Of a stretch of 7,178 bases of DNA, positions 1 to 7,135 are shown piece by piece (positions within the stretch are counted from its first letter, which is position 1; the number at the start of each line of letters is the position of its first letter). The position numbers and the translations under genes are program-made. Source of the stretch: a virus (taxonomy: Duplodnaviria > Heunggongvirae > Uroviricota > Caudoviricetes); the IMG/VR virus record IMGVR_UViG_2548876941_000009. One strand, 5' to 3'. Below the pieces are notes generated by a model that saw only the letters and a list, made by a program, of their open reading frames with translations, had not been told where the DNA came from and searched no databases.

Positions 1-354
<354 letters not shown>

Positions 355-429
355 TAAATTCTCCTTTGATTTCAAAGGCTTAGTGTATTTTAATCATTTT
401 TAACCAAGCCTTTGATATATAAGTATTTT

Positions 430-503
430 CTCTGTTAAGCGTGAGCTACGTAAAAAATAATTTTTAGTGGGTATATCTGTTCAGAAGAAATCACGTAGCA
501 CAC
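430..503. repeat. 74-bp intergenic repeat, copy A, between the tape measure stop and the next gene
   Basis: Near-identical (71/74 by eye) to 2607-2680 in direct orientation. Contains imperfect inverted-repeat arms GTGAGCTACGT and ACGTAGCACAC separated by about 40 bp of AT-rich spacer. Confidence 0.85.
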
Positions 504-517
504 GGATATATAAGAAA

Positions 518-2599
518 TCATTCTTCCTCTGGATAGCTTGAACTTAAGAGCATATCCTGCGTGAACTGGTCATTAGCTGATTGATTGAAAGTAAAGAAAG
601 CTGGTTCATCCGGTCTAACAGTTGCTTCACCAGTGATATTAACTGACAAGGGCTTCTTAGCTTCTGCCGTTAAAGCATCTACCTTGCGTGATAGTTCACT
701 AATAGTCATTGCAAGTTGAGCATTGCTATTCACAATATCACTCGTAATAGCTGGTGGAGTTGATTGTGTGTTATTTACGAAGTTATTCATCGGTTCTTGG
801 AAACCAGCAATTTTATCAGCTGCACTATTAAACCAACCTTTCACATCATCCATAGTAAATACTGGCTTAAGTCCAGACTCTTTAGCCAGCTCTGGTAATT
901 TAGCTTGTGCTTCCATTCGTTCAGGTGTAGAAGCTAATCTCTCATAACCTGCATAGATAGCACTACCAGCTAATAGCATATTCATAGGGTTTAGTCTTGA
1001 TGGTTTCCCATTCTTTCTATTCACGTTATCCGCTGTAGTATCAGCGACCTGACCTAATCTTGTGATAGCAGTCATAAGCCCGTAAATACTTCTGGTTACA
1101 CCAACAACTTTATTTACAGCAATAACACCAGCCAAGACTTTTAAACTATTAATCAAGCCAGAACCTAAAGCATCAACAACTTTCTTTTGTTCATCGGTTA
1201 AACCACGATAAGCTAATGTCACCTCATCAAAGAACGCTCTCACCCTGTAACTAATATCAGTCAGGTTATCGATACCATGCGACATATCGCTCATCAAGCC
1301 ACCAAGAGATTCACCAAGACTTTTACCACTCCCACCTAAACTATTCAAAAGCGTTGTCAAGCTTCGTGTAAAATCTTGCAGACCATTTTCAGAACCTCTG
1401 AAGATACTATCAAGCGTGGTATTCCAAGAGTTTTTCAAGTTCCCTAGTTGTGCCTGTGTACTTTCTGAAATAGCTTTCCAGCCACCTTTAGCGGTGATTT
1501 GTTTATTCAGTTCCTGAGTGACCTTCTGAAGAGTATCGGCAGATTTTAAAGCCCCCTTCTTCATGGCATCAAATAGCTCTTGTTCATTCCTTCCGGTTGC
1601 TTTAGCGAATACCTGAACCATACCAGGAACAGCTTCAGCTAATTGCCCCTTAAGCTCTTCAGCCATAATCTGACCCTTACCAGCCATCTGTGATAATGCT
1701 GTTAATGCTCGCTTAATCTCTTCTTCACTTCTCCCCATCAGACGAGAATAGCCAATCATATTTCTAAAAAGTTCTTCAGAACCTTGAATGCCCATAGACC
1801 CTCTAGCTGAAGCACCGAAACCAGCAAACTGTGATTGCAGCTCAGCGATATCTAAACCCGTTGTTTGAGCTAATGACTTTGTGAACTCTTTTACTTGACC
1901 TGCATCTTTATCAAATACGAAATCAATTGAACGTTCAGCACTTGCACGTTGAAGGCCAATTTCCATAATCTTCTGATAACTGGCTAATACAGCCTGAAAG
2001 CTGATAAATGCACCTGCTGCTTTAATTGCTGCTGAAGACAAATTATCAAGACTGCTAGCTGCTCTGTCACCATTAATGCTGGTGGATGTATGACCTCTGG
2101 CTTTAGTGATTGCCTCTCGTACACTTGAATTTAGTTTAGCAAGGGCTTCATTAAACTTGGTGTTATCCATCTGACCAGCTTTACTACTTAATGCGTAAAA
2201 CTGACTCTTAATGTATTTCTCGACAATTGGGTTAAGACCTTTCAGTTTGGTCATATTAGCTGAGTAAGCCGCTGTGATTGCTCTGCTTCCGCTAATTCGT
2301 GGCTGTCTTGGTTGTCTAAGTGGCTTTAAAGTATCCTCAATTTCCGTTTTAATCTTAAACGCTTTAGTGTTTTTAAAACGCTGCTCAATCTTGGAAACAG
2401 TTTTATCGACATTTCTTTCCATGACCTTGAGAGAATCATTTAAAGGCGTAGGATTAACTTTAAAAGCTTTATTTAGTCGTTTTTCAATTCTTGATGCGAT
2501 TTGCATCGTTTGTTTCTCGGCTTTTTCCAAGCCTTTTAAAACTTTCTGAGAGTTAAAACTTAACTCAATCAGGAAGTCATCAACTTTAAACTGTGCCAT
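518..2599 (-). CDS. Phage tail tape measure protein (693 aa)
   Basis: Long ORF with strong SD AGAGGTGA 5 nt upstream of the ATG. Central segment GKGQIMAEELKGQLAEAVPGMVQVFAKATGRNEQELFDAMKKGALKSADTL matches the conserved tape-measure domain signature (GQLxExxPG ... G-rich flank) as I recall it. Coiled-coil-like N-terminus and Gly/Ser/Leu-rich C-terminal half typical of TMPs. Confidence 0.75.
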   Translation of the reverse strand: MAQFKVDDFLIELSFNSQKVLKGLEKAEKQTMQIASRIEKRLNKAFKVNPTPLNDSLKVMERNVDKTVSKIEQRFKNTKAFKIKTEIEDTLKPLRQPRQPRISGSRAITAAYSANMTKLKGLNPIVEKYIKSQFYALSSKAGQMDNTKFNEALAKLNSSVREAITKARGHTSTSINGDRAASSLDNLSSAAIKAAGAFISFQAVLASYQKIMEIGLQRASAERSIDFVFDKDAGQVKEFTKSLAQTTGLDIAELQSQFAGFGASARGSMGIQGSEELFRNMIGYSRLMGRSEEEIKRALTALSQMAGKGQIMAEELKGQLAEAVPGMVQVFAKATGRNEQELFDAMKKGALKSADTLQKVTQELNKQITAKGGWKAISESTQAQLGNLKNSWNTTLDSIFRGSENGLQDFTRSLTTLLNSLGGSGKSLGESLGGLMSDMSHGIDNLTDISYRVRAFFDEVTLAYRGLTDEQKKVVDALGSGLINSLKVLAGVIAVNKVVGVTRSIYGLMTAITRLGQVADTTADNVNRKNGKPSRLNPMNMLLAGSAIYAGYERLASTPERMEAQAKLPELAKESGLKPVFTMDDVKGWFNSAADKIAGFQEPMNNFVNNTQSTPPAITSDIVNSNAQLAMTISELSRKVDALTAEAKKPLSVNITGEATVRPDEPAFFTFNQSANDQFTQDMLLSSSYPEEE

Positions 2600-2606
2600 T
2601 ATTCAC

Positions 2607-2680
2607 CTCTGTTAAGCGTGAGCTACGTAAAAAATAATTTTTGGTGGGTATATCTGTTCAGAAGATTTCACGTAGCACAC
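2607..2680. repeat. 74-bp intergenic repeat, copy B, immediately upstream of the tape measure start codon
   Basis: Direct repeat of 430-503 with 3 mismatches (A/G once, AA/TT once). Ends 8 nt before the tape measure ATG and is preceded by a terminator-like hairpin at 2685-2726. Confidence 0.85.
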
Positions 2681-2684
2681 ATAC

Positions 2685-2726
2685 AAAAAAGGGAGAAACT
2701 ACCGATATCACTCGATAATCTCTCCC
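2685..2726 (-). terminator. Putative intrinsic terminator downstream of the 70-aa gene
   Basis: On the minus strand, stem GGGAGA/UCUCCC (plus 2721-2726 pairing 2691-2696) is followed by a U6 run (plus 2685-2690 are A6). The loop is long (24 nt) but contains an internal UAUC/GAUA pairing. Confidence 0.45.
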
Positions 2727-2749
2727 GTACTTTACCCAACCAATTCTTT

Positions 2750-2962
2750 TTAATGTCTGACAAGATAATGTAGTTCCGTTTCACCTATAATTTGAGCATC
2801 AGAAGGAATACGGTCAATACACCACTTTGGAATCTTGCGTGTTTTTGGTTTGTATGAGGTGATGTAATGACGGTTATTCTTAATTCGTAGCTTTTGTCTA
2901 TTTGGTTGTAGCTGGAGTCTTTCGCAAACAGACCGAATAGTCTCTAAACGTTCTTCAAACAT
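2750..2962 (-). CDS. Hypothetical small basic protein (70 aa)
   Basis: ORF with SD AGAGGTGA 4-5 nt upstream of the ATG, lying 23 nt downstream of the 234-aa gene stop. Lys/Arg-rich, so possibly nucleic-acid binding. No family recognised. Confidence 0.55.
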   Translation of the reverse strand: MFEERLETIRSVCERLQLQPNRQKLRIKNNRHYITSYKPKTRKIPKWCIDRIPSDAQIIGETELHYLVRH

Positions 2963-2985
2963 TAATCACCTCTTTTAATTCATAA

Positions 2986-3690
2986 TCAAACAGCCTTGCT
3001 AAATTCTCGTGGAACACTCAGAAAATCATTGAAGCTGATAATCTGTGCCAACTCTTGACGGTACTCCTTAGCCAGCGCTTGATGGTCACTAATCAGCTTA
3101 GCCAGTCTTGATTTCAGCAAATTAATCTCATTTTCTCTTGCTTTCATCAGTTTCTCTTTGGCAATTTCTTCAAGCTCAGCTTGTGATTTATCAGCAACAA
3201 TTAGAGACAGTCGATGTGGTGCTCTGACAGCTCTTTCTGTACGAACAACTCTTTGACCTTCTGGTAAATCTGCAATCACTTTACCAATCTCTACAGGGTC
3301 ATACCCCCAACCGTCACGGTCTAGTCGAGAGAAATAAGCATAAGGATTGGTTTGAAGCTCCATCAAAATAGCCATTTCGTCAATTTCGTCTTCAAGCTTG
3401 GACTGAATTTTCTCATAAACACTTCTCATTGCTTCTTGAGAGTCTTTAATAGCTTGGAAATATCGGCGTTGTAGCTTCAACTTCAAATCAAGTTCACACC
3501 GTTCGTTCATAGAAAAATCAATTTCAACTCTTGGAATCTCAAGTGGTTCTGGTGGAATATATGGACCTTTATTTACTTCGTGTGATTCCCGCCAGGCTCT
3601 ATCAAAAGATTCACGCAAACTTAATTCGCGAATATCAAGTGCACTTGGTCTGTTCTCAATAATCATTTCATGTTCATCACGGATAGACAT
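2986..3690 (-). CDS. Hypothetical protein (234 aa), charged and predicted helical/coiled-coil
   Basis: ORF with SD AAGAGGTGA 7 nt upstream of the ATG. First gene after the leader region, upstream of the tape measure gene. No family recognised from sequence. Confidence 0.7.
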   Translation of the reverse strand: MSIRDEHEMIIENRPSALDIRELSLRESFDRAWRESHEVNKGPYIPPEPLEIPRVEIDFSMNERCELDLKLKLQRRYFQAIKDSQEAMRSVYEKIQSKLEDEIDEMAILMELQTNPYAYFSRLDRDGWGYDPVEIGKVIADLPEGQRVVRTERAVRAPHRLSLIVADKSQAELEEIAKEKLMKARENEINLLKSRLAKLISDHQALAKEYRQELAQIISFNDFLSVPREFSKAV

Positions 3691-3730
3691 TATTTTTCAC
3701 CTCTTTAGTGTAATTGCTTATTTTCAAATT

Positions 3731-3797
3731 CGTAGAAGCACACTCAGCAATCAGAGGTGAAGAGTCTGACTGAACAAGAACCTGCCAAGTGTGCTTT
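3731..3797. promoter_or_regulatory. Long-spaced inverted repeat upstream of the 234-aa gene, with a degenerate match to the 74-bp repeat arm
   Basis: Perfect 9-bp arms AAGCACACT (3736-3744) and AGTGTGCTT (3788-3796) separated by 43 bp. Plus-strand CGTAGAAGCACAC (3731-3743) resembles the CGTAGCACAC arm of the 74-bp repeats. Confidence 0.3.
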
Positions 3798-3806
3798 TAT
3801 GAATTG

Positions 3807-3841
3807 AAAAAAAGCCCTAAACATAATCTGTGAAGGGCTTT
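3807..3841 (-). terminator. Putative intrinsic terminator
   Basis: On the minus strand, stem AAAGCCCU/AGGGCUUU (plus 3834-3841 pairing 3811-3818) with a 15-nt loop, followed by a U-run (plus A-run 3807-3813). Confidence 0.5.
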
Positions 3842-3905
3842 GGAGGTTTGCTTATAACGTTAACGAAGTTTCAGGAAAACTTTCTTTAAAAGCTCTTAAA
3901 GAAAC

Positions 3906-3926
3906 GCCCTAATCATGAGTTAGGGC
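3906..3926 (-). terminator. Second hairpin (GCCCUAA/UUAGGGC, 7-nt loop), possible weak terminator or RNA structural element
   Basis: Perfect 7-bp stem. On the minus strand it is followed by GUUUCUUUAAGAGCUUUU. Shares the GCCCTAA core with the 3811-3841 hairpin. Confidence 0.3.
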
Positions 3927-4103
3927 AAAGCTGTAAAGGATTCAATAATGAATGAACAAGAGTACTTTTTGATATAGCCTATCTAGTGTGGGCTAAATAG
4001 GCCATGACGAAAAGCATTGCACCTTTCCAACTCAAAACAACTATCATTGATGTAGAACGACTAATAGTTTAATTCAAGGAGAATTGCCCTCCCCATACAT
4101 ACA

Positions 4104-4132
4104 ATTATGTCATGCTCAAGGTTGTTTGTCAA
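4104..4132 (-). promoter_or_regulatory. Sigma70-like promoter on the minus strand
   Basis: Read on the minus strand: TTGACA (plus 4127-4132), 17-bp spacer, CATAAT (plus 4104-4109). Predicted start near plus 4097. Confidence 0.4.
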
Positions 4133-4155
4133 CAACTTTTAACAGATTGGTAACA

Positions 4156-4233
4156 TCAATTATTATTTGCGGAGTTACCAACCAGACAGCCAACAAATAG
4201 CCCTAGCAGCGTCCATAATACAATTAACGTCAT
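4156..4233 (-). CDS. Putative 25-aa hydrophobic peptide (MTLIVLWTLLGLFVGCLVGNSANNN)
   Basis: Its ATG overlaps the TAA stop of the 107-aa gene (TAATG, plus 4231-4235), suggesting translational coupling. Single predicted transmembrane-like segment. Absent from the ORF track because it is below the length cutoff. Confidence 0.35.
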   Translation of the reverse strand: MTLIVLWTLLGLFVGCLVGNSANNN

Positions 4234-4556
4234 TAGTGAATCCTCACAGAATCCGCAACCAAATTATTGTCAGCGTACAAAATTGCTATAGCCGCCTTGA
4301 GATATTGTTCAGGGCTAACGCTGTATTTATTCGTTTCTTCGATAACAAGCCTTTTCATGTTTGAGTCGGTAACGGGAAACATAAAACGTGGGTCACCAGT
4401 TTTAATTCCCTGAATAAAATCTTCAATTACTTCTGAGTTCTCAGCCATTAGCTTTAACAGCCTGTCAAAGTCAATACTAATACCTGCATCAGTGAAGCTT
4501 TGCACCATCATAGCAGTGTCGTCATCAACCATAATTCGCATTGGGTAATTGTTCAT
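4233..4556 (-). CDS. Hypothetical acidic protein (107 aa)
   Basis: ORF with SD GAGGA 8 nt upstream of the ATG. Net acidic, including a DDD run near the N-terminus. No family recognised. Confidence 0.65.
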   Translation of the reverse strand: MNNYPMRIMVDDDTAMMVQSFTDAGISIDFDRLLKLMAENSEVIEDFIQGIKTGDPRFMFPVTDSNMKRLVIEETNKYSVSPEQYLKAAIAILYADNNLVADSVRIH

Positions 4557-4612
4557 TTTTAAATTCCTCTAAAACACATCTTAAATCTGCCAAAATAGCC
4601 ATTCCGAGGCCA

Positions 4613-4681
4613 GTAACCATGCGGGTTACAGAGGGAGTGAGACACCTTAGTAATAGGGTTGCTCATCTTTGAGTCTCACTC
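4613..4681. promoter_or_regulatory. Two intergenic hairpin/inverted-repeat elements between the 128-aa and 107-aa genes
   Basis: GTAACC/GGTTAC stem with 5-nt loop (4613-4629). Perfect 9-bp inverted repeat GAGTGAGAC/GTCTCACTC separated by 29 bp (4635-4681). Confidence 0.35.
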
Positions 4682-4693
4682 ATTCTCACAGGC

Positions 4694-5080
4694 TTACACA
4701 GACGCTTTAATCTTGTAGTATTGACTGCGTGATAAGCCGTATTTCTCAGAAATATAACTTTGTGATTGTCCTTTGGTGATTGCATCAATGATTAAATCTT
4801 TATCATATCTGTTACCATTGGCTTTGTGCTTGTCACCATTTTTAATAGAGTTGAAATTATCAATTAATTTAATGGCGTCTTTAAGGTCGTCTTCGTAAGT
4901 ATAATCAAAGCCTCTGATAAACTCGAAATCACCATTATCTTTTTGTGCTCCAGTCCAGATATCAAATCTTGAGGCTAATTGCTGGTGGGTAAACTTGGGC
5001 TTATTGGTTTGTGTTACGTCTTTCCAGACTTTACCGTCAAATCTTACCAGATGGTCTCGATGCTTATAAAAATCATACAT
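4694..5080 (-). CDS. Putative Mor/C-family phage transcriptional activator (128 aa) with C-terminal helix-turn-helix
   Basis: C-terminal DLIIDAITKGQSQSYISEKYGLSRSQYYKIK resembles the Mor C-terminal HTH region of phage Mu as recalled from memory (DLRIWNDFNGRNVSELTTRYGVTFNTVYKAI). Similar size to Mor (about 129 aa). Start ATG overlaps the upstream gene stop (TAATG). Confidence 0.5.
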   Translation of the reverse strand: MYDFYKHRDHLVRFDGKVWKDVTQTNKPKFTHQQLASRFDIWTGAQKDNGDFEFIRGFDYTYEDDLKDAIKLIDNFNSIKNGDKHKANGNRYDKDLIIDAITKGQSQSYISEKYGLSRSQYYKIKASV

Positions 5081-5358
5081 TAAACCTCCATTGCTAATTT
5101 GTGAATTTTGATACTTAGTAATCTTGCTAAATCCAGTCCAAAGGCATTTAGAGCCTTCAGACTATCAAGGTCATCTTGCTTAATCCTGATATGGTGTCTT
5201 GCTGCCTCTAAACGACTATTAAGCAAATCCTGCTCGTTAATATCACGGTTAATTGCAAGCTTCATCACTGCTGAGTGTGGCAGACCTGTAATGTTTTTGA
5301 TTCGGTTAAGTTCGTCAAAGGCTGTCTTTGTAACTCTGGTTAAAGTGTGCTTAGTCAT
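5080..5358 (-). CDS. Hypothetical protein (92 aa)
   Basis: ORF in the operon. Starts 3 nt after the stop of the 110-aa ORF and is translationally coupled to the downstream 128-aa gene. Confidence 0.6.
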   Translation of the reverse strand: MTKHTLTRVTKTAFDELNRIKNITGLPHSAVMKLAINRDINEQDLLNSRLEAARHHIRIKQDDLDSLKALNAFGLDLARLLSIKIHKLAMEV

Positions 5359-5361
5359 TAT

Positions 5362-5694
5362 TTAAAATCCTTCTGCTTGTGCGTACACGTCAAATTCAAA
5401 GTCTGGCTCACTGGTTGTAAGACTGATATTACCAACGGTAATATGATGCTCGACAATACCAATTAACTTTGCGCACATCACAGCAAGTAATGCGCAATAG
5501 GCATCGCTTGGTAACTCATGGCTTAACCTGGTTGCCTGACGCTGGAGATGGTTTGTCACGGTAGCTGAGTTAATTTCATCAAGATTCTTTAGAAGATAAA
5601 ACAATTTCTTGTTGTATTTTGGGTGCCCCCTCACTTCTGCAAAATCCGATAAGAATGTCGTCAAGCTTGCTCGGTAATTGCTCGTAGCTGTCAA
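5362..5694 (-). CDS. Hypothetical protein (up to 110 aa), start codon uncertain
   Basis: Longest frame begins with TTG at 5694 with no obvious SD, and overlaps the 3' end of the 112-aa ORF by about 116 nt. The frame is needed to fill 5362-5578 in an otherwise tightly packed operon. Confidence 0.45.
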   Translation of the reverse strand: MTATSNYRASLTTFLSDFAEVRGHPKYNKKLFYLLKNLDEINSATVTNHLQRQATRLSHELPSDAYCALLAVMCAKLIGIVEHHITVGNISLTTSEPDFEFDVYAQAEGF

Positions 5695-5917
5695 AGTTAG
5701 CCAGATAATTCTTGATGCTGTTCTTTGTTGTTTTGCGTACTGACATATAACGACTCCTCGGTGTAATTGCCCGAATTACTTCGTCAATGCCTTTGCGTTC
5801 TGCTCTGGTGAACTTAGGTGCTTCGTGGCTGGTGGGGGAGTTTGTGTAAGCGTAGGAATTGTATCTGTTACGTTGTCTCGATGCCTGAAGCATCGCTCTA
5901 AATTCTGCATCTCTCAT
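5579..5917 (-). CDS. Hypothetical basic protein (112 aa), first gene of the operon
   Basis: ATG at 5917 preceded by AAGGA 8-9 nt upstream and by a promoter about 45 nt upstream. Arg/Lys-rich N-terminal half. Confidence 0.6.
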   Translation of the reverse strand: MRDAEFRAMLQASRQRNRYNSYAYTNSPTSHEAPKFTRAERKGIDEVIRAITPRSRYMSVRKTTKNSIKNYLANFDSYEQLPSKLDDILIGFCRSEGAPKIQQEIVLSSKES

Positions 5918-5967
5918 TCATAAGCTAGTCCTTATAATTGTTAATTCTCTGTTAACCAATATATACA

Positions 5968-5996
5968 ATACTAGCATTTTCAAAGGCTAATGTCAA
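5968..5996 (-). promoter_or_regulatory. Sigma70-like promoter for the minus-strand operon
   Basis: Read on the minus strand: TTGACA (plus 5991-5996), 17-bp spacer, TAGTAT (plus 5968-5973). Confidence 0.5.
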
Positions 5997-6002
5997 GCAT
6001 TT

Positions 6003-6032
6003 TTAACAATTTAGTAACATCTGTGGTATAAT
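6003..6032 (+). promoter_or_regulatory. Divergent sigma70-like promoter with extended -10
   Basis: TTAACA (6003-6008), 18-bp spacer, TGgTATAAT (6024-6032). Sits back-to-back with the minus-strand promoter, the two -35 elements 6 bp apart. Confidence 0.55.
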
Positions 6033-6054
6033 GGGTTTATGGGGAGAGTAAAAT

Positions 6055-6399
6055 ATGAGGCGTGGCTATCGAGAATGGCCGCATGGTTATTGCATTGCAC
6101 ACAGACCTCTTCAATCGCTCTGTAACGAGTTAAACGGCCTCTTCAGGTCAACTATAAGGTCAGGTACTTTTTTGTGCCAGAATGCGATTGAGAGCGTCCT
6201 ACAAGGAAAGCTAATGGTAAACCTCCCTGAACTGGGGTCACCTGATGTATGGGCTGGTGGAGGTATTGGACTGATTGCAGGTCTGCTACTCCGCTATTTC
6301 ATCGTCAGAGTGTTTATCGTGTTCAGATTGTTTGGTCGTGAATGGTCATTTGACCTCAAGGACAGGACCCGAACAGACAACCACACAGAACCCCGTTAA
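6055..6399 (+). CDS. Hypothetical protein (114 aa) with one hydrophobic, transmembrane-like segment; could instead be the 5' part of a non-coding transcript
   Basis: ATG at 6055 preceded by GGAG(AG) at about 8 nt and by the strong promoter at 6003-6032. Sequence has the hydrophobic stretch GGGIGLIAGLLLRYFIVRVFIVFRLF but odd composition (Cys/Trp/His/Arg-rich N-terminus). Confidence 0.4.
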   Translation: MRRGYREWPHGYCIAHRPLQSLCNELNGLFRSTIRSGTFLCQNAIESVLQGKLMVNLPELGSPDVWAGGGIGLIAGLLLRYFIVRVFIVFRLFGREWSFDLKDRTRTDNHTEPR

Positions 6400-6490
6400 A
6401 CTCCCTTCAAAACCCCTGTACGAGATGACAGATAGAAGTCTATGTTATAGGGGTATCTTTAGCATTTTGCGCTATCTATTAAAAAATAGC

Positions 6491-6520
6491 TTGACAGAAC
6501 CAGAAAGCTGCATCTATAAA
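6491..6520 (+). promoter_or_regulatory. Sigma70-like promoter
   Basis: TTGACA (6491-6496), 18-bp spacer, TATAAA (6515-6520), preceded by an A-tract (6480-6486). Confidence 0.35.
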
Positions 6521-6526
6521 GCATTC

Positions 6527-6900
6527 ACCTCTCTGACAGTGATTTCTAAAAGTTCTTATTTTTCAATTAGTTGTAATTAGCCAATATAATAGCTGTTCAG
6601 CTTCTTCACAGGGAAACTTCAGAGGCATTCTTAACCGTCCACTAAGTGGGAGAAGAGCGACATCCCAGAAAGGGAAGCTCCTTTCTAATTGGTATTGTTA
6701 CCAATCCCTAAACCGACTTCTTAACCCACCCTTACGTTATTCGTTCACAGTGTCGATAAGTGGTTTTGCCCTCTGTTTCTGTTATCATCGGGCTTACCTT
6801 GTCAGGGCTTTGAAATGTCCCTGTAACTCCCTCTTAACGGGAGAGAAAGAACATAGTGACCCCAAGCGAAGCGCCCCTCTAAAAAGATTTTTTAGCTATT
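6527..6900 (+). ncRNA. Candidate structured non-coding region of unknown class
   Basis: No plausible ORF beyond short peptides. Noticeably GC-richer by eye than the phage genes. Many local hairpins, for example AGAAAGG/CCTTTCT (6668-6687), ATTGGTA/TACCAAT (6689-6706), CCACT/AGTGG (6640-6650), CAGGG/CCCTG (6803-6823), CTCCC/GGGAG (6828-6844). Confidence 0.25.
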
Positions 6901-7081
6901 TTGTTTAAAGGCACATCAAACGATACATTTTGTTGATTTTGGTCAAAGACAAAAGCATTGACAAAATGGTAAGATTGTTCACATGACCTTACTTAACAGA
7001 CTTTTAAGAGCTTTTGAAACAGCCTGTTTAACAAGGTCACTACCTACGGTTCTTCGTTTCCCTTCTTTCTAGGTAGTCATC

Positions 7082-7135
7082 TGTTAAGTATCTTTTCAGA
7101 TATCTCTTTGTTAAGTATCTTTTCAGATATCTCTT
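7082..7135. repeat. Perfect tandem duplication of a 27-bp unit, TGTTAAGTATCTTTTCAGATATCTCTT, with palindromic core AGATATCT
   Basis: Units at 7082-7108 and 7109-7135 are identical. A partial third start, CTGTTAAG, follows at 7143-7150. Confidence 0.8.

What the first reader, a model, noticed from the sequence alone, without database searches (positions are those of the whole stretch)
5940..6060. Back-to-back divergent promoters forming a candidate genetic switch region
A minus-strand promoter (TTGACA-N17-TAGTAT) and a plus-strand promoter (TTAACA-N18-TGgTATAAT, extended -10) have their -35 elements only 6 bp apart. TTAAC-containing motifs recur here (GTTAACCAAT at 5951, TTTAACAAT at 6002, GTAACAT at 6014) and could be operator half-sites. 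This is the expected layout for a lysis/lysogeny or early/immunity decision point. No obvious repressor gene is visible on the plus side, where the first ORF is an odd 114-aa membrane-like protein.
Basis: seen in the sequence. Interest (0 to 1): 0.5.

Follow-up and report, generated by a model that had tools for sequence, protein, structure and literature searches.

The report
Phage-iteron operators at island's divergent promoters
The two back-to-back promoters are real and strongly conserved, and they form the control region of an undescribed mobile E. coli island whose operator-like repeats match the repeat array of Felix O1-type virulent phages, so it looks like a phage-coupled control point and not a classical lysis/lysogeny switch.

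Summary
A leftward TTGACA-17-TAGTAT promoter and a rightward TTAACA-18-TGgTATAAT promoter lie 6 bp apart. This core is the most conserved stretch across 17 related sequences. The window is part of an 11.5-13 kb island with a serine integrase, present in 411 of 5426 complete E. coli genomes at five or more insertion sites.

The TTAAC motifs resolve into a bipartite site, TTAACA-N5-KTAACA. Its half-sites are invariant and its spacer varies. It occurs three times in the window against 0.17 expected: twice around this region and once at a paralogous promoter module at 4104-4155. The same motif, in the same 11-bp register, forms a 14-15-copy array in a conserved non-coding region of Felix O1-type (Ounavirinae) phages. 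Those phages also supply the closest relatives of the island's tape-measure and adjacent tail genes.

- The 114-aa ORF is really a conserved 58-61-aa membrane protein.
- The 112-aa basic protein is a frameshifted 184-aa gene.
- The 128-aa HTH gene is a replaceable cassette.

No CI/Cro-type pair exists. My best model is that these are operator sites for a TAACA-repeat-binding protein, possibly the island's 184-aa product, which couples island transcription to phage infection. No binding has been shown.

The parts
5968..5996 (-). Leftward promoter B(-): TTGACA-17-TAGTAT with TG. The inferred start is near 5961. It drives the 184-aa, 92-aa, 128-aa, 107-aa and 25-aa genes.
   Evidence: Promoter scan. 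The -35 hexamer and the 17-nt spacer are invariant and the -10 keeps TAnnnT in 17 of 17 sequences. The start position is inferred, not mapped.
6003..6032 (+). Rightward promoter B(+): TTAACA-18-TGgTATAAT (extended -10). The inferred start is near 6039.
   Evidence: Promoter scan, 11 of 12. TTAACA and TGGTATAAT are invariant in 17 of 17 sequences.
6003..6019 (+). Right TAACA-repeat site (TTAACAATTTAGTAACA). It lies at -36..-20 of B(+) and -42..-58 of B(-).
   Evidence: half-sites invariant, N5 spacer variable (8 versions). The L001 version is 16 of 17 identical to a phage SP116 repeat pair.
5939..5955 (-). Left TAACA-repeat site (TTAACAGAGAATTAACA on the minus strand). It lies at +7..+23 of the leftward transcript, between the inferred start and the ribosome-binding site.
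   Evidence: present in 17 of 17 sequences, with TGTTAT in 3. It is 16 of 17 identical to TTAACAGAGATTTAACA of phage SP116.
6039..6213 (+). 5' untranslated region of the rightward transcript. It has a conserved hairpin at 6062-6082. Positions 6106-6212 are absent in four relatives.
   Evidence: The overall fold is not unusual (z = -0.54).
6214..6399 (+). Conserved gene for a 58-61-aa single-pass membrane protein. A terminator-like hairpin follows at 6412-6454.
   Evidence: The ORF is intact in 17 of 17 sequences. Variable sites by codon position are 26/10/39. The family is confined to this island type. Hairpin.
5362..5917 (-). First leftward gene, 184 aa in relatives. In this window it is frameshifted by an extra C at 5626. 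It is the best island-encoded candidate for the site binder.
   Evidence: It is the only early gene shared with a distant island whose promoter also carries TAACA repeats. No known fold was found.
5080..5358 (-). 92-aa protein with two predicted strand-helix-helix units, a ribbon-helix-helix (RHH)-like pattern. It is a second candidate binder.
   Evidence: pLDDT 48, low confidence; internal repeat, P = 0.011. It is absent from the distant island.
4104..4155 (-). Paralogous module A: leftward promoter TTGACA-17-CATAAT (4132..4104), with a TAACA-repeat site at 4139-4155 in the same -42..-58 position.
   Evidence: The plus-strand -10 found here is not conserved.
3905..4097 (-). Structured leader or small RNA of about 195 nt from promoter A(-). 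It ends in an intrinsic terminator before the 234-aa/70-aa/tape-measure/baseplate genes.
   Evidence: Fold z = -3.81. It has an invariant 20-nt block, covarying hairpins, and a terminator in all relatives.
6664..6715 (+). Non-coding element shared with Felix O1-type phages: 52 nt at 84.6% identity, including 23 nt that match exactly.
518..2599 (-). Tape-measure protein gene. Its closest phage relatives are in the Ounavirinae. It gives context for the link to a helper phage.

Best explanation
This is the main transcription control region of an 11.5-13 kb integrative island that is tied to Felix O1-type (Ounavirinae) phages.

Two near-consensus sigma-70 promoters fire back to back. The leftward one drives the island's conserved early operon: 184-aa, 92-aa, a variable slot, 107-aa and a tiny peptide. 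The rightward one drives a 58-61-aa membrane protein.

The region carries two copies of an operator, TTAACA-N5-KTAACA, made of two TAACA units one helical turn apart. One copy covers the -35 and spacer of the rightward promoter. That same copy lies at -42..-58 of the leftward promoter. The other copy lies at +7..+23 of the leftward transcript. A third copy sits at -42..-58 of a paralogous leftward promoter ahead of the tail-gene operon.

A protein bound to these sites must block the rightward promoter, and it probably also restrains the leftward one. I infer that the binder is made by the island itself, most likely the 184-aa first-gene product acting as an autorepressor.

Felix O1-type phages carry the same repeat in an array of about 15 copies. 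I therefore infer that incoming, replicating phage DNA competes for the binder, or is itself its target. Either way, island expression becomes coupled to infection.

What is shown and what is inferred:
- Shown: the promoters, the sites, their conservation, and the identity of the motif with the phage array.
- Inferred: start sites, who binds, and the direction of regulation.
For: Promoters.
- They are real by consensus and by conservation.
- The back-to-back arrangement is non-random.

The site.
- It is enriched in the window: 3 exact copies against 0.17 expected.
- Half-sites are invariant while the spacer varies, including inside the rightward promoter's spacer, where RNA polymerase needs no specific sequence.
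- There are 41 exact copies in 182 kb of island DNA, all at these three positions, and none in 190 kb of flanking chromosome.

The phage match.
- The same motif in the same 11-bp register gives 15 hits in phage SUSP2 (0.13 expected) and 14 in phage SP116 (0.15 expected), in a non-coding region conserved in 283 Ounavirinae records.
- Some pairs are 16 of 17 identical to island sites.

Other links to these phages.
- The tail gene next to the tape-measure gene is 67% identical in protein to SUSP2 gp017.
- The tape-measure protein shares its N- and C-termini with the phage protein.
- A 23-nt non-coding stretch matches exactly.

Evidence for a resident binder.
- Both promoters are near consensus, so they would be constitutive in uninfected cells.
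- In a distant island the 184-aa homologue is only 32% identical in BLASTP (33% in the representative search). There a TAACA 11-bp repeat lies between the -35 and -10 of that gene's promoter.
- That homologue is the only early gene the two island types share.
Against: - No binding or expression data exist.
- The 184-aa protein matches no DNA-binding family or known fold. It is frameshifted in this window.
- No island regulatory protein has a detectable homologue in SUSP2. The phage's own array binder is therefore a different protein, and it could act on the island sites directly.
- The distance between the left and right sites varies from 62 to 65 bp, so there is no strict helical phasing for looping.
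- Module A has only the upstream site.
- The A-rich stretch next to each -35 could act simply as an UP element.
- The function of the phage array is unknown.
Confidence: 0.4

Rival explanations
1. The sites are bound by a phage protein, the same one that binds the phage's own repeat array. The island copied only the DNA sites. On infection, this protein shuts the rightward promoter and acts on the two leftward promoters from -42..-58. This would flip island transcription toward the operons that include the tail genes.
For: - The motif and its register are identical in island and phage.
- No island protein has a homologue in SUSP2, so copying the sites is the simpler evolutionary route.
- The site lies at the same upstream position at both leftward promoters.
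- By analogy from general knowledge, satellite P4's late promoters carry binding sites for the helper P2 activator.
Against: - The leftward promoters already have a consensus -35, a 17-nt spacer and TG, so they do not look activator-dependent.
- The +7..+23 site, and the site inside the promoter spacer in the distant island, fit repression better than activation.
- Without a resident repressor, both promoters would be on in uninfected cells.
Confidence: 0.25
2. No dedicated regulator exists. These are two strong constitutive promoters. The TAACA/A-rich repeats serve as UP elements or phased bendable DNA, or are bound by a general nucleoid protein. The resemblance to the phage array reflects shared DNA architecture.
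For: - An A-tract directly upstream of TTGACA recurs at B(-), at A(-), and at a third promoter-like site at 6491 that has no TAACA pair.
- The site overlaps the -40..-60 zone of the leftward promoters.
- No recognisable regulator was found.
Against: - The half-sites are invariant while the spacer varies, and the second half-site sits inside a promoter spacer.
- The left site lies downstream of the start, where an UP element has no role.
- There are zero copies in 190 kb of host DNA.
- Matches to phage repeat pairs reach 16 of 17.
Confidence: 0.15
3. The rightward unit is a small-toxin module of the type I toxin-antitoxin or abortive-infection kind. The strong promoter, long leader and small hydrophobic protein form the toxin arm. 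The divergent arrangement controls toxin release.
For: - A conserved 58-61-aa membrane protein follows a 70-175-nt leader with a conserved hairpin.
- A second tiny hydrophobic ORF is conserved elsewhere in the island.
Against: - No antisense RNA gene was identified.
- The leader fold is not unusual (z = -0.54), and 107 nt of it are dispensable in relatives.
- There is no match to toxin or defence families.
- This model does not explain the paralogous module or the phage motif.
Confidence: 0.1
4. One reading: a temperate-phage lysis/lysogeny or immunity switch, with a repressor and an anti-repressor transcribed divergently.
For: The layout is divergent promoters with repeated operator-like sites.
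Against: - There is no CI/Cro-like gene on either side.
- The plus side encodes only a membrane peptide.
- The element is a 12-kb island with two tail genes. No replication, capsid or lysis genes were recognised.
- The only HTH-like gene is a replaceable cassette.
Confidence: 0.05

Closest known systems
Autoregulated initiators of iteron plasmids (P1 RepA, pSC101 RepA, R6K pi). From established knowledge, not tested here.
   Same: A protein binds phased repeats in an array and also binds a short operator made of the same repeat units over its own promoter. It therefore represses itself, and extra repeat copies compete for it. This matches the proposed logic: a two-unit operator at the promoter of the first gene, and an array of about 15 units elsewhere.
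   Different: - Here the array is on a different genome, that of a virulent phage, and not on the element itself.
- The candidate binder has no similarity to Rep proteins.
- The island has no repeat array of its own.
Control region of SaPI-type satellites, with divergent stl and str promoters. From established knowledge.
   Same: An integrated island of similar size has a central divergent promoter region that keeps the island quiet until a helper phage infects.
   Different: - SaPI Stl is a recognisable HTH repressor encoded on one side and is lifted by helper proteins.
- Here one side encodes a membrane peptide and no repressor family is recognisable.
- The operator motif is shared with helper DNA.
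P4/P2 late promoters that carry binding sites for the helper (or satellite) activator near -55. From established knowledge.
   Same: A satellite promoter carries a cis site recognised by a factor of the helper system, placed upstream of the -35 at two separate promoters.
   Different: - P4 late promoters lack a good -35 and depend on the activator. Here the -35 hexamers are consensus.
- P2 is temperate. Felix O1-type phages are virulent.
- No P4 marker genes were found.
PLE of Vibrio cholerae, a satellite of the virulent myovirus ICP1. From established knowledge.
   Same: A chromosomal island with a large serine recombinase is associated with a virulent myovirus and carries helper-related functions.
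   Different: - There is no sequence relationship, and no RepA or nuclease markers were recognised.
- This island carries a tape-measure gene and the adjacent tail gene.
- Induction, excision and packaging are untested.
Lambda OR (PR/PRM)
   Same: Back-to-back promoters with repeated operators. One bound site can repress one promoter while touching the other.
   Different: - There is no CI/Cro pair.
- The operators are direct 11-bp-phased repeats, not 17-bp palindromes.
- There is no evidence of bistability.

Membership tests
Sigma-70 divergent (back-to-back) promoter pair | Two -35/-10 pairs of good consensus and correct spacing on opposite strands | tested here: met
   Scores of 10 of 12 and 11 of 12, both with TG. 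Only 4 of 2000 shuffles contained such a pair.
Sigma-70 divergent (back-to-back) promoter pair | Promoter elements conserved in relatives beyond the background level | tested here: met
   The hexamers and the 17-nt spacing are invariant in 17 sequences. The core is the conservation peak of the region.
Sigma-70 divergent (back-to-back) promoter pair | Mapped transcription starts on both strands | not testable with these tools
   No transcript data are available. The starts near 5961 and 6039 are inferred from the -10 positions.
Temperate-phage CI/Cro-type lysis/lysogeny switch | Divergently transcribed repressor and anti-repressor genes flanking the operators | tested here: not met
   The plus side encodes a 58-61-aa membrane protein. 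The leftward genes match no repressor family.
Temperate-phage CI/Cro-type lysis/lysogeny switch | The element is a prophage with replication, capsid and lysis modules | tested here: not met
   The annotated islands are 11.5-13 kb. They hold an integrase, two tail genes and small unknown genes.
Operator made of repeated protein-binding half-sites | Repeated motif enriched over chance, with constrained half-sites and a free spacer | tested here: met
   Three exact copies against 0.17 expected. Half-sites are invariant and there are 8 spacer versions.
Operator made of repeated protein-binding half-sites | Demonstrated binding by a protein | not testable with these tools
   This needs a gel shift, a footprint or ChIP.
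Repeat (iteron-like) array of Ounavirinae phages | Same half-site sequence and same 11-bp register as the phage array | tested here: met
   15 hits in SUSP2 and 14 in SP116 against 0.13-0.15 expected. Successive copies are 11 bp apart. Pairs are 16 of 17 identical to island sites.
Phage satellite (general definition) | Integrative element with its own recombinase, found at several chromosomal sites | tested here: met
   A large serine recombinase is present. Insertions lie at tonB-yciI, yecE, mdtG, wrbA-ymdF and dinB-lafU.
Phage satellite (general definition) | Lacks most virion genes but shares genes or cis sites with a helper phage | tested here: met
   Only the tape-measure gene and one adjacent tail gene are present. 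Both are closest to Ounavirinae. The repeat motif and a 23-nt element are shared.
Phage satellite (general definition) | Helper-dependent induction, replication and packaging | not testable with these tools
   This needs infection experiments. The island lies on IMG/VR contigs of 25-52 kb, which is uninformative.
Known satellite families (P4-like, PICI, cfPICI, PLE) | Family marker genes: P4 alpha/sid/psu, PICI alpA/ppi, capsid genes, PLE repA | tested here: not met
   No such domains were found in Pfam, PHROGs or NCBIfam scans of the island proteins.
Ribbon-helix-helix repressor (92-aa protein) | Strand-helix-helix fold and a family profile match | tested here: inconclusive
   The predicted secondary structure is strand-helix-helix twice, but pLDDT is 48. 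The internal repeat has P = 0.011. There is no Pfam or PDB profile match.
Type I toxin-antitoxin | Small hydrophobic toxin plus an antisense RNA | tested here: inconclusive
   The small membrane protein is present. No antisense RNA or Rfam family was found. Toxicity is untested.

The most novel reading that the evidence does not exclude
The island is an undescribed family of satellites, or anti-phage parasites, of virulent Felix O1-type phages in E. coli and its relatives. Its central promoters sense infection through DNA. An island protein that represses itself at two-unit TAACA operators is drawn off by, or directed to, the roughly 15-copy TAACA array on the incoming phage genome. That switches on island genes, including a substitute tape-measure protein and an adjacent tail protein.
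Probability: 0.3. Interest if true: 0.85.

Novelty: new variant of a known kind. Interest (0 to 1): 0.6.

Why it matters
Satellites of virulent phages are known from very few systems, and how they detect their helper is mostly unknown. This island is found in about 8% of complete E. coli genomes. It would provide a sharply defined 17-bp operator that it shares with the non-coding repeat array of a widely used group of phages (Felix O1 and its relatives, used in typing and therapy).

If the link holds, three things follow:
- It gives a testable mechanism for sensing infection: competition for, or sharing of, a repeat-binding protein.
- It gives a handle on the unexplained 1.7-kb non-coding region of Ounavirinae genomes.
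- It predicts that island-bearing strains respond differently to these phages.

Tried and rejected
RNA and protein family scans:
- Rfam found nothing in the whole window at E <= 1. No tRNA or tmRNA was found.
- Pfam, PHROGs, NCBIfam and PADLOC gave no assignment for the 184-, 92-, 107-, 234-, 70- or 61-aa proteins. The only signal was a sub-threshold HTH_28 hit in the 128-aa protein.

Structure:
- The model of the 92-aa protein was too poor for fold search (pLDDT 48).
- A profile search of PDB sequences was empty.

Wider searches:
- The species-representative genome scan found only two more loci, in E. albertii and Citrobacter.
- Homologue searches showed that all three protein families are narrow.
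- Six literature searches found no description of this island, no satellite of Felix O1-type phages, and no account of the phage repeat region. Searches were also unhelpful.

Ideas rejected:
- The 114-aa ORF. Its start codon is not conserved.
- The plus-strand promoter at 4139-4166. Its -10 is not conserved.
- The 128-aa HTH protein as the conserved regulator. It is a variable cassette.
- Strict looping between the two sites. Their spacing varies from 62 to 65 bp.
- A structured rightward leader (z = -0.54).
- An island repeat array acting as an origin. No such array exists.
- Other motifs shared with the phage. None was found.

Full report
**1. The observation**

- Minus strand: TTGACA at 5996..5991, a 17-nt spacer, then TAGTAT at 5973..5968, preceded by TG.
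- Plus strand: TTAACA at 6003-6008, an 18-nt spacer, then TATAAT at 6027-6032, with TG at 6024-6025.
- The -35 hexamers are 6 bp apart.

Promoter-like matches in general are not enriched in the window: 15 found against 18 expected. The arrangement is another matter. I required both partners to match 10 of 12 or better and the -35 hexamers to lie 0-15 bp apart. The window then has two back-to-back pairs. Of 2000 dinucleotide shuffles, only 4 had one pair and none had two. The second pair lies at 4104-4166.

**2. What the window is**

- Positions 56-7108 match E. coli chromosomes. The best match is 99.6% to strain 21KM1392.
- No phage or plasmid record carries the region.
- Positions 1-55 are a repeat that is also found on more than a thousand plasmids near transposase genes.

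In annotated genomes the window falls within an 11.5-13 kb island with a constant layout:
- a large serine recombinase;
- a 'baseplate' gene and a tape-measure gene;
- 70-aa and 234-aa genes;
- an intergenic region;
- a 107-aa gene, a variable slot, a 92-aa gene and a 184-aa gene, all leftward;
- the divergent region under study;
- a small rightward ORF;
- about 1.4 kb with no annotated gene, sometimes carrying a Dam methylase;
- a small serine recombinase and one more gene.

The island is inserted at tonB-yciI, yecE, mdtG, wrbA-ymdF or dinB-lafU. The 5750-6450 segment occurs in 411 of 5426 complete E. coli genomes, always on the chromosome. It also occurs in E. albertii and Citrobacter.

**3. 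Conservation**

I aligned the window with 16 relatives that are 75-99% identical.
- TGTCAA, TTAACA and TGGTATAAT are invariant.
- The leftward spacer is always 17 nt.
- The leftward -10 always keeps the form TAnnnT.
- Positions 5966-6010 are the conservation peak of the whole 1.1-kb stretch, with 24-25 invariant positions per 30. Coding windows on either side have 8-19.

Both promoters are therefore under selection.

**4. Corrections to the gene picture**

- The ATG at 6055 is not conserved. Four relatives also lack 6106-6212.
- The conserved rightward gene starts at 6214 and encodes a 58-61-aa single-pass membrane protein. It is intact in all 17 sequences. Its variable sites by codon position are 26/10/39, which is a coding signature.
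- A hairpin followed by a U-rich tail lies after that gene.
- The '112-aa basic protein' is the front of a 184-aa gene that is broken in this window by an extra C at 5626.
- The 128-aa protein has only a sub-threshold HTH hit. In many relatives it is replaced by an HNH endonuclease plus an unrelated 71-aa protein. It cannot be the conserved regulator.

**5. The operator-like motif**

The TTAAC motifs resolve into TTAACA-N5-KTAACA, that is, two TAACA units 11 bp apart. The window has three exact copies and one near copy, against 0.17 expected:
- 5939-5955 on the minus strand;
- 6003-6019 on the plus strand;
- 4139-4155 on the plus strand.

In all 17 sequences the TAACA cores of the half-sites are fixed apart from a TGTTAT variant of the left site in three loci, while the 5-nt spacer takes eight forms at the right-hand site. 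The second half-site there lies inside the spacer of the rightward promoter. RNA polymerase needs no particular sequence at that position, so the constraint points to a protein-binding site.

Exact copies number 41 in 182 kb of island DNA, all at these three places. There are none in 190 kb of flanking chromosome.

Positions relative to the inferred starts are as follows.
- The right site covers -36..-20 of the rightward promoter and -42..-58 of the leftward one.
- The left site covers +7..+23 of the leftward transcript.
- The copy at 4139-4155 lies at -42..-58 of the second leftward promoter, at 4132..4104.

The combined pattern TGTCAA-N6/7-TTAACA occurs exactly twice in each sequence. The module is therefore duplicated within the island. 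At the second module the plus-strand -10 is not conserved. What the two modules share is a leftward promoter plus an upstream site.

**6. The link to Felix O1-type phages**

The island's tape-measure protein aligns full-length with those of Ounavirinae (27% identity; phmmer E = 1e-63 against SUSP2). The termini are the best-conserved parts. The next gene is 67% identical in protein to SUSP2 gp017 and about 77% identical in DNA to Felix O1.

A search with the island's non-coding DNA found a 52-nt match, including 23 nt exact, in a 1.67-kb unannotated region of SUSP2 and its relatives. That phage region is an array of the same motif:
- TTAACA-N5-KTAACA, allowing one mismatch, occurs 15 times there against 0.13 expected.
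- Successive copies are 11 bp apart.
- Across the whole SUSP2 genome, 15 of 20 hits fall in this 0.75-kb stretch.

The region is conserved in 283 Ounavirinae records. A Felixounavirus, SP116, has 14 hits against 0.15 expected. These include TTAACAGAGATTTAACA and TTAACAATTTCTTAACA, each 16 of 17 identical to an island site. None of the island's small proteins has a detectable homologue in SUSP2.

**7. Who binds?**

No island protein matches a known regulator family.
- The 92-aa protein has a predicted strand-helix-helix pattern repeated twice, and a weak internal repeat. The model is poor.
- The 184-aa protein is helical, has a basic N-terminal part, and has no structural neighbour.

A distant island was found through a homologue of the 184-aa protein that is 274 aa long and 32% identical to it in BLASTP (33% in the representative search). 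It keeps the overall plan: Dam, the 274-aa gene, a resolvase, a late promoter followed by a terminator, and a tape-measure gene. Its only exact TAACA-N6-TAACA lies between the -35 and -10 of the 274-aa gene's promoter. The 184-aa family is the only early gene the two island types share.

This makes the 184-aa protein the best island-encoded candidate. It also makes repression the more likely role of the sites.

**8. The model**

Shown:
- two conserved promoters;
- three conserved bipartite sites;
- identity of the motif with a phage repeat array;
- tail genes related to those of the same phages.

Inferred:
- Occupancy of the right site blocks the rightward promoter.
- The site pair restrains the leftward operon.
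- The binder is resident and probably self-regulating.
- Phage DNA carrying about 15 sites per genome competes for the binder or is its target.

The main rival is that a phage protein binds the island sites directly.

**9. Comparison and novelty**

The logic resembles that of iteron-plasmid initiators, which repress their own promoter through a short operator built from iteron units. It also resembles satellite control regions such as SaPI stl/str and the helper-responsive promoters of P4. These comparisons come from general knowledge and were not tested here.

Membership in the known satellite families fails on marker genes. The general satellite criteria that can be checked are met. Induction and packaging cannot be tested with these tools.

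Six literature searches found no description of the island or of the phage array. The library is incomplete, so prior description cannot be excluded.

Noticed in passing
window 3905-4097 (minus strand): Promoter A(-) is followed by a strongly structured RNA of about 195 nt (z = -3.81) that ends in an intrinsic terminator just before the 234-aa/70-aa/tape-measure/baseplate genes. It has an invariant 20-nt block (GAAAGGTGCAATGCTTTTCG), a 5' stem-loop and a central hairpin with compensatory changes. The terminator exists in two sequence versions. The RNA is a candidate small RNA or attenuator for the tail-gene operon. The same promoter-terminator layout occurs in the distant island (L025 9587-9861).
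   Followed up: partly
window 4156-4233 (minus strand): A tiny hydrophobic ORF (25 aa, MTLIVLWTLLGLFVGCLVGNSANNN) has a start codon that overlaps the stop of the 107-aa gene (TAATG). It is present in all 17 sequences in two versions (25 aa or 21 aa) and is unannotated.
   Followed up: partly
window 7079-7132; L001 27024-27044 and 28627-28647: 21-nt inverted repeats (ATCTGTTAAGTATCTTTTCAG) flank the small serine recombinase gene. That gene lies in either orientation in different genomes, though as different alleles. This suggests an invertible segment of about 1.6 kb. The window carries a 27-bp tandem duplication of the left repeat. The repeat resembles units of the phage array (ATCTGTTAAGATTCTG).
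   Followed up: partly
window 6664-6715; L017 2501-2551 and 3138-3162: A non-coding element is shared with Felix O1-type phages. Its core TGGTATTGTTACCAATCCCTAAA matches exactly and contains the palindrome TTGGTA-TTGT-TACCAA. The phage region holds two copies. The function is unknown.
   Followed up: partly
window 5626: An extra C in a C-run frameshifts the 184-aa gene relative to the 99.6%-identical genome copy. With the repeat junction at position 55 inside the baseplate gene, this suggests that the window's copy of the island is decaying.
   Followed up: yes
window 4084-4097 and 6038-6051: The first transcribed bases of promoters A(-) and B(+) are alike: TATGGGGAGGGCAA against TATGGGGAGAGTAA. 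No such sequence occurs in phage SUSP2.
   Followed up: partly
window 3881-3904 and 7000-7019: Two similar palindromes (TTTCTTTAAAAGCTCTTAAAGAAA and ACTTTTAAGAGCTTTTGAAA) lie in two different non-coding regions. A related sequence also lies in the distant island (L025, near 5085). They may be a second kind of binding site.
   Followed up: no
window 6102-6198; e.g. L002 24414-24533, L005 7675-7794: Part of the rightward leader has a second copy upstream of the 107-aa gene, but only in island variants that carry the HNH endonuclease cassette. It may be a footprint of homing or cassette exchange.
   Followed up: no
window 6491-6520: A third promoter-like site (TTGACA-17-TATAAA) has the same A-tract upstream of the -35 as B(-). 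In most relatives the -10 is TATCAA. It faces about 350 nt of conserved DNA that has no ORF.
   Followed up: partly
L001 27316-27560 (outside the window, inside the putative invertible segment): A near-consensus promoter (TTGACG-17-TGTATAAT) is followed by a G-rich stretch of about 190 nt and a clear terminator (GGACTCC...GGAGTCC TTTTTT). It looks like an unannotated small RNA gene.
   Followed up: no
L018 22891-22918 (phage SUSP2): Outside the main array, the phage has three TGTTRA units in 11-bp register between the tail-fibre gene and the gp027/holin genes. The repeat may therefore also act at a phage promoter.
   Followed up: no
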